This document shows, piece by piece, positions 3,981 through 63,356 of a stretch of DNA of 64,000 bases (within the stretch, counting starts at the first letter, position 1; the number at the start of each line of letters is the position of its first letter). Location: assembly GCA_964016885.1 (NCBI GenBank), contig CAXHJY010000913.1, forward strand, positions 15,281-79,280, in the 5' to 3' direction. The stretch comes from Eledone cirrhosa. Taxonomy: Eukaryota. The translations under genes were made by a program, and so were the position numbers. The notes under the pieces are model-generated. The model was not told the origin of the DNA. It ran no database searches and worked only from the letters and a program-made list of their open reading frames with translations.

Positions 3981-4600
3981 CAAGGAAACTATGTTTCTAT
4001 TGATCTTTCCATTGCTGATACTGTCTTTAAATCAAGGAAACTATTATGTTTCTATTGGTCTTTCCATTGCTGATACTGTCTGTCTTCAGATCAGACCAAG
4101 GAAACTATGTTTCTATTGGTCTCTCCATTGCTGATACTGTCTGTCTTCAGATCAGACCAAGGAAACTATGTTTCTATTGGTCTCTCCATTGCTGATACTG
4201 TCTGTCTTCAGATCAGACCAAGGAAACTATGTTTCTATTGGTCTCTCCATTGCTGATACTGTCTGTCTTCAGATCAGACCAAGGAAACTATGTTTCTATT
4301 GGACTCTCCATTGCTGATACTGTCTGTCTTCAGATCAGACCAAGGAAACTATGTTTCTATTGGTCTCTCCATTGCTGATACTGTCTGTCTTCAGATCAGA
4401 CCAAGGAAACTATGTTTCTATTGGTCTCTCCATTGCTGATACTGTCTGTCTTCAGATCAGACCAAGGAAACTATGTTTCTATTGGACTCTCCATTGCTGA
4501 TACTGTCTGTCTTCAGATCAGACCAAGGAAACTATGTTTCTATTGGACTCTCCATTGCTGATTCTGTCTCTCGTAATATCAGACCAAGGAAACTATGTAT
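3981..4600. repeat. 61-bp minisatellite, ~10 copies
   Basis: Unit CAAGGAAACTATGTTTCTATTGGTCTCTCCATTGCTGATACTGTCTGTCTTCAGATCAGAC; internal copies nearly identical, ends degenerate. Confidence 0.95.
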
Positions 4601-5914: not shown

Positions 5915-6186
5915 GCGGAAGAATAAAATAAGTGATATATAAACATCTAAAGAAGGGCATAACTCGTTAAGTTGTTAACAGACTTTCACAACTGACTGAT
6001 AGAGCATTTTCCGTTTTTTGTTTTTTTTTTCAATTCCTCGCATCCTATGGGTGACCTTTATCCAATCCTCTGCGAAACGCACGTAACAGGTCGATACACA
6101 ATAAAAACCTAAATACATCTAAACGAAAGTTCATTGTTTTTCTTAGTGCATGAAACAGTTCTAGTCCTGTAGAAGCCATTTCTATA

Positions 6187-6571
<385 letters not shown>

Positions 6572-19031: not shown

Positions 19032-20724
19032 GTGTGTGTGTGTATTGAAATCCCGATGTAAATCGGGAGGCGACTGCTTTTAAAAAAAGGTACTCAATAC
19101 GCTAGTAGAATTTTGGCATATTCAGTCTATTAGAGAAATTACTTCGATGTGAAATCTTACGAATGAAACAGATCTAGTCCTGTAGATGTCATTTATATAA
19201 TAAAATGAACACACACACAAAGGCAGGGGTATGAGATAGACATAAACACAGATACGTATCGAAAATGGTCGATGTACATGGGTATAAGTATGACTATGTA
19301 ATGTGTATGTAGCATACGGTGGCGAGCGAAAATTTGAAAAATTGAATTAGAAGCTTTTCGCTGTATTATAGTATTACAGAAAATAGTCTAATAACAGGTC
19401 ACATAAGCCCCCACAACGGAAAAAAAAGGGGCATCAGTTTTCACAGAAGGTAATCACTTTAACTTGTATAAATGAAATAGGAAAGAATTCAACAATTCGG
19501 CCGGTGGTCGTTTGTAAAGAAGAAGAAAAAATATTTCCGGTGGTGCAGAGTTTCAAGTTGAAAACTGGATATAAATAACATGACTGGCGTAAAAATTTAG
19601 AAGTGGATAATATTTTTTGATTCGAAAAAACGTTTTTAAATTGAGGTGATAATGTGTGATCTCCATGTTGGATGTCTCAAACACGCAGCTATTCAGAAAT
19701 CAGATTACACATTGAGAGAAGTAAAAGTAGTCTTCTGTTCTTAGTATTATTCTATGTTGCACTTTTAAACGGATTTTTGTCCACTTCTGTTTCACTGAGA
19801 AGTCAGCAGCGAGGCCCGTAATGTAGTAATAAATTCACACAAATCTATTTAAATGTACAGCAGTTAGTGGTTCTTTTCGACACTAATTATATTTTGATGT
19901 ATATGGTGTAATATAACAAGTAATGATGCTCTCTATAACTCTGTGTGTGTGTGTGTGTGTGTATGCCTAGGACGGTTGGAGGGCCACTGATGAAGGACTT
20001 ACTTTTTCATATGTAACCCATTTGCAACGCCGCAGCTCCATTATTATCATATTTACATATATATATATATACAGGGGTGGTGGAACTGGGGGGGGGGGGG
20101 GGCATGGACCCCGCAATAATTATATTTTTCTCCCCAAACTACCAAAACATACATCTATTTGTATATGCGCTACAATTTATGTACGTGTTATGTAGCGACA
20201 GATGGAAGAGATAGATAGAGAGGGGGAGGGTTTGGTGGTAATTGATATAGAGAGGATGGTTGGGAGAGTGTGTTGTATATTAGATATAGAGAGTGGGGGA
20301 GATTAATGTTTATTGATATAGAGAGAAGAATTTGAAGAAGATATAGAGATGGGGAGAGTTTGGTATTAATTGATATATAGAGGGGGGATTGGGAGAGATA
20401 AGTGTTGATATTTATAAAGAGTGAGAGAATGTATTAATCTTAGATATAAAGAGTGTGATAAGAGAGGCTATGTCGTGGTTGATATAGAGAGGGGTAGAAT
20501 TTGGTTTTACTAGATACAGAGAGGGGGATTAAAAGAGAGTTTTGTCTGATAGACATAGTGCGCGGAGGGGGAGTTTGGTAGCACTGTTGGGTCCCAAATG
20601 ATAGGAGAGTGGCAATAATGGGAGGGGAGGGGCTTGGGAAATCAATAACTGTATAATGTACGTTCGTAAATATGGGATTAATTGTCATATATGTTTTTTT
20701 AATGTAAAATAACATTATTATTAG

Positions 20725-32146: not shown

Positions 32147-32205
<59 letters not shown>

Positions 32206-32213
32206 TTATCCCG

Positions 32214-32264
32214 GGCTTCCTGATGATTTCTCCCGAATGAAACAGTTCTAGTCCTGTAGAAGCC
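32214..32264 (+). ncRNA. Type I hammerhead ribozyme forming almost the whole of a ~70-bp insert inside (TA)n
   Basis: GGCUUC-CUGAUGA-uUUC uccc GAAu-GAAA-CAG uucuaguc CUG-UA-GAAGCC; 6-bp stem I, 3-bp stem III plus A-U; related pieces at 6150-6186 and 19141-19198. Confidence 0.8.
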
Positions 32265-32309
<45 letters not shown>

Positions 32310-32472
32310 GTATAATAAACAATACAATATAATTACCTCATTACCAGAGGTCTCCCGAATAAGACGAATACAAGAAACGTCCTCATTCGTTCGTCGGACA
32401 AGGCAATTTAAAACATAGTGAAATATTTGAAAAATCTCCTCATGTTATCAATTTTCAACGGAAACTTCAATA

Positions 32473-32536
<64 letters not shown>

Positions 32537-39051: not shown

Positions 39052-39250
39052 GGAACGGGTAGGACCCCGACGGCTGAGCTCAAGCCGTTTCGACGGCTAA
39101 TTCTGGACTAGCCGTCGAATTAGCCGTCGAAACGGCTTGAGCTCAGCCGTCAGGGTCCTACTCGTTCCTATTACCCAATCTACTACCCTAAGTATTGAGT
39201 ACTTTGGTGCGTTATGGTCCACCTGGTTCCTTACGACATTTCCTTCGTTA
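39048..39250 (+). mobile_element. TA-embedded fold-back module family H (truncated hammerhead: stem II, GAAA, stem III, GUC, stem I 3' strand)
   Basis: Inverted arms 39048-39103 and 39117-39172; GAAA-CGGCU ugagcuc AGCCG-UC-(G/A)GGGUCC; copies at 42220, 45709 and 49021. Confidence 0.85.
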
Positions 39251-39799: not shown

Positions 39800-40068
39800 A
39801 TGTCAGGGCATTCTTCTTGGAGAAGGCAACTTAGAAAACTGGGTTAACTCCGATATAAAACATGCGGCTCAGTAGTTACCAATGATGTTGATCTTTTCTT
39901 CTTTTCGGGTTATAGCTACTGTCGCTCAGAGAGTGGGATTGGCTCAGTGCACAGTCTTTCTTCACTTTAAAAATATCTTCACGCACAGGCATTGCACGAT
40001 AGAATTAATAATTGTTAATAATGGTATAACGTGCAATGGCCATATTCGATAACGAGGGGGCAGCCATC

Positions 40069-40071
<3 letters not shown>
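39800..40071 (+). mobile_element. Shorter diverged relative of the ~600-bp element
   Basis: Shares GGAGAAGGCAACT, CCAATGATGTTGA, GAGAGTGGGA, GCACAGGCATTGC and the 3' end GGCAGCCATCAT followed by (TA)n. Confidence 0.65.
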
Positions 40072-40109
<38 letters not shown>

Positions 40110-40160
40110 TTCCTACAGATAAATTATTATACACTAACATAATATTCACACATACATTTA

Positions 40161-40226
<66 letters not shown>

Positions 40227-40270
40227 TATACATATATATACATATATATATATACATATATATATACATA

Positions 40271-40756
40271 TATTTCTCTGGGACACCGTAGAGTCTTACA
40301 ATCTTCCACAATGACTCTCGATGAACACTGTCGAAAGCTTTCCTGAAGTCAATGTAGTTGACAACAAGTGACTTGTGGAACTCCCGACACTGTTCAATGA
40401 TATTTCGGAGAGTGAAGATCTGCTCTGAACAAGACCTTCCACTGCGGAAGCCAGCCTGTTCGTCTCGAAGATGACGATCTACTTCAGCCGGTTCAGGATG
40501 ACTGTGCAGAATATCTTCCCTGGCACTGATAGCAAAGTGATCCCTCTCCAGTTGTTGCAGTCGCTGAGACAGCCCTTCTTCAGTAGTGGTACAATCACTC
40601 CATTTCGCCAGTCCTACGGCACTCCTCTTCTTGCCAAATCACATTGCATAAATGGGTGAGCTGCTCCTCTATTACATCTATTACATCTTTGCTCCTCTAT
40701 TACATCTTTGCTCTTGATTGGCAAACTGCTTCCACTTCATCCTCCAGTTAGCTCTC
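40271..40756 (-). mobile_element. RTE-clade LINE reverse transcriptase fragment (N-terminal RT region, disrupted)
   Basis: Minus strand: [43 protein letters not shown]...[64 protein letters not shown]. Confidence 0.92.
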
Positions 40757-40803
40757 TATAACGTGCAATGGCCATACTCGATAACGAGGGGGCAGCCATC
40801 ATG

Positions 40804-40871
<68 letters not shown>

Positions 40872-40911
40872 TTCCTACAGATAAATGATTATACACTAAC
40901 ATAATATTCAC

Positions 40912-41494
40912 TCATATTGACGATGGGGATGCTGAGGTGGATGTGCGCACAAGGCTGGGAAAAGCAGCGGCGGTCTTCCAGCGACTCCGTCCGGTATGGT
41001 CCAGGTGTTCCATCGGCAACGCCGTCAAACTCCGTGTTTACATGTCCATTGTAGTACCAACAGCGATATATGCCTGTGAGACATGGAAGAGTACGGAAAG
41101 TGTATGTAACAAGCTTGATGTATTCCACCGTCGTTGCATTCGGACCATATTGAAAATTTCATGGAGAGACCAAGTTAGCAACGAGGAAGTGATGAGGAGG
41201 TCAGGATTGGAGAAGTTAAGGGACATTGTCCGGAAAAGGGGGACGGCCGTTCGCGGGCCACATCCTTCGTTTGCCGGCAGATCGAGCTGCTCATATTGCC
41301 ATGGATTGGGTACCAGAAGGTGGCAGGGGGGAACGGGGAAGACTACGAAAAACATGGCGGAGCACATTCAGGGAGGACTTGCAGGAGATGGGAATTACCT
41401 GGAGAGGTGCTAGTAGGGCCGCCAGTGACATGATCAAGTGGAGGAAGCTCGTCGCCCAATGTTCCACAAGGGACTGGAGGAACTAAGACTAAGA
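40912..41494 (+). mobile_element. RTE-clade LINE 3' fragment (post-RT domain to stop, short CTAAGA tail), one frameshift
   Basis: DVRTRLGKAAAVFQRLRPVW...KLRVYMSIVVPTAIYACETW...LDVFHRRCIRTILKISWRDQVSNEEV / FAGHILRLP...GRGERGRLRKTWR...KWRKLVAQCS; ends AACTAAGACTAAGA into (TA)n. Confidence 0.92.
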
Positions 41495-42219: not shown

Positions 42220-42464
42220 ATAGGAACGAGTAGGACCCCGACGGCTGAGCTCAAGCCGTTTTGACGGCTAATTCTGGACTAAAAAAAAAAAAATTCTGGA
42301 CTAAAAAATAAATTTTTTTCTTTTTTTAGTCCAGAATTAGCCGTCGAAACGGCTTGAGCTCAGCCGTCGGGGTCCTACTCGTTCCTATTACCCACTCTAC
42401 TACCCTAAGTATTGAGTACTTTGGTGCGTTATGGTCCACCTGGTTCCTTACCACATTTCCTTCG

Positions 42465-49020: not shown

Positions 49021-49167
49021 ATAGGAACGAGTAGGACCCCGACGGCTGAGCTCAAGCCGTTTCGACGGATAATTCTGGACGTTCCTATTACCCACTCTAC
49101 TACCCTAAGTATTGAGTACTTTGGTGCGTTATTGTCCACCTGGTTCCTTACCACATTTCCTTCGTTA
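49021..49167 (+). mobile_element. Family H module with an internal deletion at the inversion junction
   Basis: Antisense arm 49021-49080 joined directly to GTTCCTATTACCC...; flanked by (TA)n. Confidence 0.85.
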
Positions 49168-59748: not shown

Positions 59749-63294
<3,546 letters not shown>

Positions 63295-63356
63295 TTTGAA
63301 AGGGTATGTATAAACAGCATGCCACGATTAAAAGCCTCAAGACTGGGGTAAACATC

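What the first reader, a model, noticed from the sequence alone, without database searches (positions are those of the whole stretch)
32150..32306. A ~70-bp insert that is essentially just a hammerhead, inside pure (TA)n
The unique sequence 32202-32270 is 51 nt of ribozyme plus a few flanking bases. Its 3' 37 nt (ATGAAACAGTTCTAGTCCTGTAGAAGCCATTTCTATA) recur exactly at 6150-6186 before a (CA)n tract and in decayed form at 19141-19198 before a short CA run. All three end at about the same position, which suggests a defined 3' end primed in a microsatellite. The stem III loop varies (TTCTAGTC vs ATCTAGTC) around a CTAG palindrome. This may be one of the smallest mobilised ribozyme units.
Basis: partly seen in the sequence, partly recalled or inferred. 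Interest (0 to 1): 0.75.

Follow-up and report, generated by a model that had tools for sequence, protein, structure and literature searches.

The report
Penelope retrotransposon tip copied to cap
The 70-base insert is a fragment from the end repeat of an abundant Penelope-type jumping gene, not a free-standing mobile ribozyme, and many such fragments start 30 bases after a TATA box with an extra G, which likely marks copying that ran to the capped start of the RNA.

Summary
The sequence is as described: a 51-nt type I hammerhead (32214-32264) between pure (TA)n tracts. It is not a stand-alone unit. It is part of the terminal repeat (pLTR) of a Hydra-clade Penelope-like element: TATA box, hammerhead, ~70-nt tail, then a 713-aa RT/GIY-YIG ORF (intact in 5 of 10 long loci fetched, all of a sister subfamily). 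A 26-nt core has 7,605 exact genomic matches. The insert's first 12 nt are the inverted end of the tail. Copies end at two fixed sites, and 49 of 51 typed inverted pairs use one of each. New: 65 of 91 exact-hammerhead copies begin at the first base of stem I, 30 nt after the first TATA base, mostly with an extra G. A sister subfamily shows the same spacing and G; short copies of three Neptune-type families also start about 30 nt after their TATA. Likely mechanism: both target strands prime near the 5' end of the capped, uncleaved RNA, cDNA runs to the cap, and the two cDNAs join by microhomology. The U-U pair is a family trait; cleavage is untested.

The parts
32150..32201 (.). (AT)26, left part of the target microsatellite
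32202..32203 (.). 2 nt (CG) where most other copies have AA or AT; unexplained (junction addition or later mutation)
32204..32215 (-). 12-nt inverted arm: the outer end of the pLTR tail (inferred RT start site b); its last three bases overlap the other arm as GGG microhomology
32213..32213 (+). G at position -1 where the parental pLTR has C; inferred copy of the 5' cap (in this copy also explicable by the inverted arm)
32214..32264 (+). type I hammerhead; its first base is the inferred transcription start (+1), 30 nt after the first base of the parental TATA box; U-U at the base of stem II; CUAG palindrome in loop III; predicted cut after 32258
32265..32273 (+). short extension to the inner fixed end (inferred RT start site a), merging into TA
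32270..32307 (.). (TA)19, right part of the target microsatellite
6150..6189 (+). second copy, starting at about nt 24 of the hammerhead and ending at site a before (CA)n; no inverted arm found
19141..19204 (+). third, decayed copy ending at site a
19050..19145 (-). decayed inverted arm of the third copy, carrying the tail out to site b
   Evidence: score 35, maximum of 300 shuffles 30

Best explanation
The insert is a head-to-head fragment of the terminal repeat of a Hydra-type Penelope-like retrotransposon, likely made when both strands of a cut (TA)n tract primed reverse transcription near the 5' end of the element's capped RNA. Shown: the parent has TATA, hammerhead, tail, ATG and an RT/GIY-YIG ORF; copies have two fixed 3' ends and one sharp 5' end at TATA+30 with an extra G. 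Inferred steps: (1) Pol II starts at the first base of stem I and caps the RNA. (2) The ribozyme stays mostly uncleaved. (3) The endonuclease cuts (TA)n. (4) One strand primes at site a (about nt 60-68) and copies to the cap, adding C opposite it. (5) The other primes at site b (about nt 135) and here stops after 12 nt. (6) The cDNA ends join through GGG microhomology and are repaired. The copy lacks the promoter and most of the tail, so it is probably dead.
For: Parent element: the tail reads through into an ATG in L200 and L267. This subfamily's hammerhead precedes the ORF in L448 and L449. 5 of 10 long loci have hammerhead, intact 713-aa ORF, 2.5-3.9-kb TA/GT-rich 3' region and a second direct hammerhead; copies with broken ORFs, including this subfamily's, match the intact element at 78-85% over the ORF region. 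Hydra motifs are present. Two ends: 41 at a, 38 at b, 12 unassigned of 91; 61 of 91 have an inverted arm; a pairs with b in 49 of 51 typed pairs. This matches two internal RT starts and both-strand priming shown in vitro for Poseidon_Ac (PMC11167929). 5' end: 65 of 91 start within 3 nt of stem I and 26 extend upstream. TATA lies 30 nt before stem I in both subfamilies although the spacer sequence differs. Base -1 is G in 16 of 28 junctions not templated by the inverted arm (background 14%, P about 1e-7), but C in 25 of 26 extended copies. In the sister subfamily +1 is A, so slippage on GG is excluded: 79 of the first 100 listed non-C copies have G (counted by eye from the list; 2,000 such copies), 8 of 11 untemplated junctions are G, and 6 adjacent head-to-head pairs carry G on both arms. 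Incidental short copies of three ORF-linked Neptune-type families start at TATA+27 to +36 in 21 of 28 cases, also where the hammerhead lies further downstream. Untemplated 5' G as a cap mark: PMC3287187 (passages). Uncleaved template: 68 of 1,684 tail copies lack the A at the cut; 12 of 30 inspected start there, 4 of them explicable by stem I microhomology.
Against: No RNA evidence for the start site or cap. No intact ORF was found for this exact subfamily; the intact ones belong to the sister subfamily. In 37 of the 65 junctions at +1 the base at -1 can be templated by the inverted arm and is uninformative, and the script's classes are rough. Copies starting at the cut after a flank A are not counted, so the cleaved share is underestimated. 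D. virilis Penelope has a TATA-less internal promoter (PMC2377424, passages), and PMC3846280 explains head-to-head junctions by self-priming on an antisense template. In the sister subfamily most copies extend past +1 (6,726 with C against 2,000 without; the C class is strand-skewed, perhaps by an array). Pfam support for GIY-YIG is weak (E=0.017). The exact-match samples favour young copies on contigs C1-C4.
Confidence: 0.8

Rival explanations
1. The 70-bp form is itself a minimal mobile ribozyme unit: a (TA)n flank supplies a TATA-like promoter and the element's enzyme copies it in trans.
For: The same junction recurs at 6 loci (L001-L004, L012, L013). An upstream TA tract could mimic TATA at -30 (inference).
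Against: Only 3 exact junction matches against 256 exact hammerheads. The junction follows from GGG microhomology, and equivalent short-arm junctions of other lengths occur (L030, L066, L506, L513). Sequence variants of short copies also occur in long copies (by eye). Sequence downstream of the RT start, which Poseidon_Ac needs (PMC11167929), is absent.
Confidence: 0.05
2. One cDNA runs to the RNA 5' end, folds back on itself and primes the second arm (self-priming), or an antisense template self-primes, as proposed for bdelloid Penelope elements; the short form then arises by deletion within the palindrome.
For: Many junctions sit in short palindromes or microhomologies. PMC3846280 (passages) proposes self-priming. 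Long inverted repeats are deletion-prone (general knowledge).
Against: Either arm can be the one that reaches +1, and both can: six pairs carry the extra G on both arms. Fold-back gives no reason for the second arm to end at the other fixed site in 49 of 51 pairs. Poseidon_Ac extends both target strands in vitro.
Confidence: 0.1
3. The sharp 5' end is a reverse-transcriptase arrest at stem I or a splice junction rather than a capped start, and the G is ordinary terminal addition.
For: The end coincides exactly with stem I. In D. virilis Penelope an intron ends at the 5' end of helix I (PMC4209133). An AG lies 2 nt upstream of +1 in this subfamily (sequence).
Against: The pile-up follows TATA spacing in families where the hammerhead is elsewhere. 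No shared upstream exon is seen. The sister subfamily has CCC, not AG, before +1. The added base is strongly G-biased.
Confidence: 0.08
4. A monomer of a circular-RNA retrozyme (tandem, self-cleaved, circularised, then retroposed).
For: Type I hammerhead with a palindromic loop; retrozyme monomers of 51-972 bp derived from PLE repeats are reported (bioRxiv 10.64898/2026.07.22.740005).
Against: No head-to-tail 70- or 130-nt arrays were seen in the sampled loci (not searched genome-wide). Copies keep the whole uncleaved ribozyme and do not pile up at the cut. The sequence is contiguous with an ORF.
Confidence: 0.03

Closest known systems
Hydra clade of endonuclease-positive Penelope-like elements (Craig et al. 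2021, PMC8557442; passages, sections 10-11, supplement searched)
   Same: Single ORF with RT and C-terminal GIY-YIG, DKT, CxCx5C linker, CxxC and CxH around E and N, canonical hammerhead, (TA)n targets, inverted 5'-truncated copy, one-sided tail.
   Different: RWR for RWK; element about 5-6 kb because of a 2.5-3.9-kb TA/GT-rich 3' region (Hydra generally under 3 kb); tail about 70 nt (30-40 reported); U-U at the base of stem II. Three short DNA/RNA motifs and the N-terminal peptide were not found in the supplement text (long runs there are cut).
Poseidon_Ac in vitro mechanism (Frangieh et al. 2024, PMC11167929; parts 1-2 of 4)
   Same: Two internal RT starts bounding the tail, AT-rich cutting, extension on both strands, uncleaved RNA as template.
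   Different: There the hammerhead overlaps the ORF start; here it is wholly upstream at the inferred +1. The parts read do not report cap-terminated short insertions or an extra G.
Penelope elements of Adineta vaga and Drosophila virilis (PMC3846280, PMC2377424; passages)
   Same: Head-to-head inverted pLTR with optional tail; promoter inside the pLTR; a putative TATA in A. vaga pLTRs.
   Different: The D. virilis promoter is TATA-less and internal; junctions were ascribed to antisense self-priming.
PLE hammerheads and animal non-LTR retrozymes (PMC4209133 parts 1-2 of 4; PMC7229834 passages; bioRxiv 10.64898/2026.07.22.740005 parts 1-3 of 5, supplements not seen)
   Same: Type I fold, palindromic loop III suited to dimers, many dispersed single motifs from truncated PLEs.
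   Different: Lacks the conserved G10.1-C11.1 pair; not tandem; copied uncleaved.
Cap-derived untemplated G at L1/SVA 5' junctions (PMC3287187, passages); retroviral minus-strand strong-stop DNA (recalled, not from a call)
   Same: Extra 5' G at the transcription start; a short cDNA from an internal primer site to the cap.
   Different: Different enzyme class; here the primer is the target DNA and two such cDNAs are joined.

Membership tests
Hydra-clade PLE | Single ORF, RT plus C-terminal GIY-YIG | tested here: met
   713 aa; YRDD at 347; VY..YIG at 586-604. Pfam GIY-YIG only E=0.017. Intact in the sister subfamily, broken in this one.
Hydra-clade PLE | DKT motif and CxCx5C linker | tested here: met
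   DKT at 116, CxCx5C at 566
Hydra-clade PLE | RWK motif | tested here: inconclusive
   RWR at 38, a conservative change
Hydra-clade PLE | CxxC and CxH flanking conserved E and N | tested here: met
   CxxC 666, E, LLN 683, CxH 694
Hydra-clade PLE | Canonical hammerhead in the pLTR; (TA)n targets | tested here: met
   Hammerhead on both sides of the ORF; 125 of 144 tail ends run into a dinucleotide repeat
Hydra-clade PLE | Generally under 3 kb | tested here: not met
   About 5-6 kb between hammerheads because of the long 3' region; a descriptive, not diagnostic, trait
Hydra-clade PLE | RT phylogeny places it in the clade | not tested
   Published proteins could not be brought into the tools; resemblance to Hydra-1_Obim by eye only
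Endonuclease-positive PLE | Inverted 5'-truncated copy with one-sided tail | tested here: met
   61 of 91 inverted; a with b in 49 of 51
Type I hammerhead ribozyme | Core CUGANGA, GAAA, UH and three stems, with covariation | tested here: met
   two stem I pairs change on both sides (10 cells; 0 of 500 shuffles; related, hand-picked sequences); stem II fixed while loop II varies
Type I hammerhead ribozyme | G10.1-C11.1 closing pair | tested here: not met
   U-U in 190 of 195 arms; also U-U in a Neptune-type family here
Type I hammerhead ribozyme | Self-cleavage | not testable with these tools
   The predicted monomer minimum pairs stem II's 5' strand with the core GAA; the active fold is 1.0 kcal/mol higher; a CUAG dimer folds at -28.6 against 2 x -9.3
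Non-LTR retrozyme | Head-to-tail tandem units | tested here: not met
   None in sampled loci; no genome-wide tandem search
Non-LTR retrozyme | Circular RNA made by double self-cleavage | not testable with these tools
   No RNA data; DNA copies do not pile up at the cut
Non-LTR retrozyme | No coding capacity in the parent | tested here: not met
   The parent sequence continues into the ORF

The most novel reading that the evidence does not exclude
Penelope-like elements replicate through a strong-stop intermediate, like retroviruses. RT always starts at sites a and b in the upstream repeat, a short way from the cap, because only there are they followed by the downstream sequence the enzyme needs. 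The short cDNA then jumps to the downstream repeat to copy the body. The many cap-ended, head-to-head mini-insertions are failed jumps, and the hammerhead at +1 is a protein-gated timer or binding fold rather than a cutter of the template. Against: extended copies keep C at -1 (25 of 26), and read-through RNA from tandem copies explains them without a jump.
Probability: 0.25. Interest if true: 0.82.

Novelty: new member of a known kind. Interest (0 to 1): 0.5.

Why it matters
As a 'smallest mobile ribozyme' the finding fails: it is a by-product of a known kind of element. The by-products are informative. How Penelope-like elements, the closest relatives of telomerase, make head-to-head, one-tailed insertions is named as an open question in PMC8557442. 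Here genomic fossils give the RNA start to the base (TATA+30), a cap-like G on either or both arms, and one-of-each use of the two RT starts. That favours twin priming on a capped sense RNA over antisense self-priming and is directly testable in the existing in vitro system. I found no report of cap-ended PLE insertions (open-access library only), so absence from print is not established.

Tried and rejected
Rfam: no hammerhead among the 150 best of 331 window hits shown or in the local scan. Plain folding z-scores of the insert were not significant. My first reading that the element starts with CGGG was query bias; the parent has C at -1. Walking upstream from short copies crossed twice into unrelated elements nested in the same microsatellite and otherwise ended in TA/GT-rich sequence. 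0 of 80 loci picked by the Pfam GIY-YIG model were contiguous with this family; they were mostly Neptune- or Penelope-type. The ORF was found only by looking downstream of the tail. No RNA holder listed. Laying three runs' contigs gave no cover of the insert because repeats are skipped, so empty-site alleles could not be tested. No solved relative (best E=0.077). No paper retrieved on 10.1-11.1 mismatches. PMC13000458 and PMC12602865 (passages) did not bear on the question. In one search the Neptune starts were 22 of 51 at +27 to +36; one search shows the upstream clusters come almost wholly from ORF-selected loci, hence the 21 of 28 figure for the other loci. Two duplicate loci (L287, L288) were dropped from the 93 to give 91. 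The host species was not determined; 'octopus' and 'cephalopod' as search terms were a guess from the repeat landscape.

Full report
Observation. The insert, its pure TA flanks, the hammerhead fold and the two further window copies are as described. The hammerhead spans 32214-32264 with the predicted cut after 32258. Rfam does not recognise it. The genome (G000, 3.0 Gb) holds 7,605 exact matches of a 26-nt core (control 0) and 256 of the whole 51-mer, but only 3 of the insert's left junction.

The unit is longer than the insert. Most copies continue about 70 nt past the point where the insert stops and then meet (TA)n. The insert's first bases, 32204-32215, are the reverse complement of that outer end. 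I sampled 93 of the first 94 listed exact-hammerhead places (the one left out is L010) and dropped two duplicates. Of the 91, 41 end at the inner site a, 38 at the outer site b and 12 are unassigned. 61 have an inverted arm directly upstream. Where both arms can be typed, a pairs with b in 49 of 51. The decayed window copy at 19.1 kb has the same layout. This is the inverted copy with one-sided tail described for Penelope-like elements (PMC8557442; PMC3846280). Its biochemical basis, two internal RT starts and extension on both target strands, was shown for Poseidon_Ac (PMC11167929).

The parent element. Upstream walks and 80 GIY-YIG loci did not link the family to an ORF. Looking downstream of site b did: two loci read through into an ATG about 50 nt later and a third into the start of the same stretch. 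A search with that stretch gave 40 scored matches. Of 30 loci, 10 have a frame open to the end of the locus, and this subfamily's hammerhead precedes the broken ORF in L448 and L449. Of 10 longer loci, 5 have hammerhead, intact 713-aa ORF, a 2.5-3.9-kb TA/GT-rich 3' region and a second direct hammerhead; these belong to a sister subfamily. The protein has YRDD, DKT, CxCx5C, a GIY-YIG-like VY..YIG, CxxC and CxH, and RWR for RWK, matching the Hydra clade as defined in PMC8557442 section 11. Pfam support is weak and no tree was built.

A sharp 5' end. 65 of the 91 copies begin within 3 nt of the first base of stem I and 26 run further upstream. In the parent the first base of a TATA box lies 30 nt before stem I, with CCAAT further up, in both subfamilies despite different spacer sequences. 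The parent has C at -1 (25 of 26 extended copies). Junctions not templated by the inverted arm have G in 16 of 28 (background 14%); the other 37 are uninformative. In the sister subfamily +1 is A. There 2,000 exact copies have a base other than C at -1, and of the first 100 listed 79 are G, 11 T and 10 A (counted by eye). 8 of 11 untemplated junctions are G, and six adjacent head-to-head pairs carry G on both arms. 6,726 copies have C, mostly extended ones, so cap-ended copies are a minority in that subfamily. Incidental short copies of three ORF-linked Neptune-type families start 27-36 nt from their TATA in 21 of 28 cases (22 of 51 truncated starts when ORF-selected loci are included), including a family whose hammerhead lies further downstream. 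An untemplated 5' G is attributed to copying of the cap for L1 and SVA (PMC3287187). The cap reading is an inference; no RNA was seen.

The ribozyme. U-U at the base of stem II is in 190 of 195 arms. The three other stem II pairs stay while loop II varies, and stem I changes on both sides at two pairs between subfamilies (hand-picked, related sequences). So the fold is maintained, but without the G10.1-C11.1 pair called highly conserved in PMC4209133. The predicted monomer minimum sequesters the core GAA, the active fold is 1.0 kcal/mol higher, and the CUAG palindrome allows a dimer. Templates were mostly uncleaved: 68 of 1,684 tail copies lack the A at the cut, and 12 of 30 of those inspected begin there. 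Copies starting at the cut after a flank A escape this count. This agrees with Poseidon_Ac, where uncleaved RNA is the substrate and cleavage needs the protein.

Mechanism of this insert. Likely: the enzyme cut the (TA)n tract; one strand primed at site a and copied about 60 nt to the cap; the other primed at site b and copied 12 nt; the ends annealed through GGG at 32213-32215. The same short-arm class occurs at 8 loci of this subfamily and 2 of the sister subfamily among those held, with different arm lengths, as expected for repeated independent events. The copy has no promoter and lacks most of the tail and the downstream sequence, so it is probably dead. Fold-back self-priming, RT arrest or splicing, a self-propagating 70-bp unit and a retrozyme monomer fit less well (see rivals).

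Novelty. The element is a new member of the Hydra clade; short motifs of it were not found in the PMC8557442 supplement, which lists one other octopus Hydra family. Dispersed single hammerheads from truncated PLEs are known (PMC4209133). I found no paper on cap-ended PLE insertions; the library is open-access only and the bioRxiv supplements are closed. Earlier AI notes on this genome report two-site priming and a fixed internal stop in other families; they are leads, not support. Verdict: real feature, first reading partly wrong, ordinary element class, with a testable new clue to how these elements copy themselves.

Noticed in passing
window 42222-42462; also about 39091-39250, 45730 and 49040-49165: A second family of head-to-head, one-tailed short elements with a hammerhead 3' half (palindromic loop) and a tail box shared with the family studied; its parent and promoter were not found.
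   Followed up: partly
window about 39269 (+) and 7834 (-); L130:2384-2690: A third family with a type I hammerhead (GCGC palindrome in stem III), 1,730 first-look candidates in the genome and many inverted pairs.
   Followed up: partly
window 32308-32478: The right flank of the finding is itself a very high-copy repeat ending in (TA)n; TA tracts here collect nested insertions.
   Followed up: no
L236-L255, L376-L415: At least six Neptune-type families, a Penelope/Poseidon-type family with tandem hammerheads about 500 bp apart (L246), and further Hydra-type ORFs; about 10,600 GIY-YIG first-look candidates.
   Followed up: partly
L239, L243, L250 (3' region): A Neptune-type family whose hammerhead also has U-U at the base of stem II and a CUU cleavage triplet.
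   Followed up: partly
L146-L175: Another Hydra-type family with two fixed 3' ends about 170 nt apart and an expanding (T5A)n tract in its 3' region.
   Followed up: partly
L478-L485: 3' regions of 2.5-3.9 kb made almost wholly of degenerate TA/GT repeats are carried inside intact elements, so these elements may spread the microsatellites they target.
   Followed up: no
genome-wide: Strong strand skew (4,499 against 2,227) among sister-subfamily copies suggests a large same-orientation array somewhere.
   Followed up: no
L034-L038, L042, L047, L048: One truncated copy is embedded in a larger unit repeated at least 8 times at the start of contig C1.
   Followed up: no
window 40015-41413: Broken reading frames that look like RTE-type LINE reverse transcriptase (label recalled, not tested).
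   Followed up: no
window 4045-4598 and 59749-63295: A 61-bp tandem array (9 copies, 98% match) and a 3.5-kb degenerate (AT)n tract.
   Followed up: no
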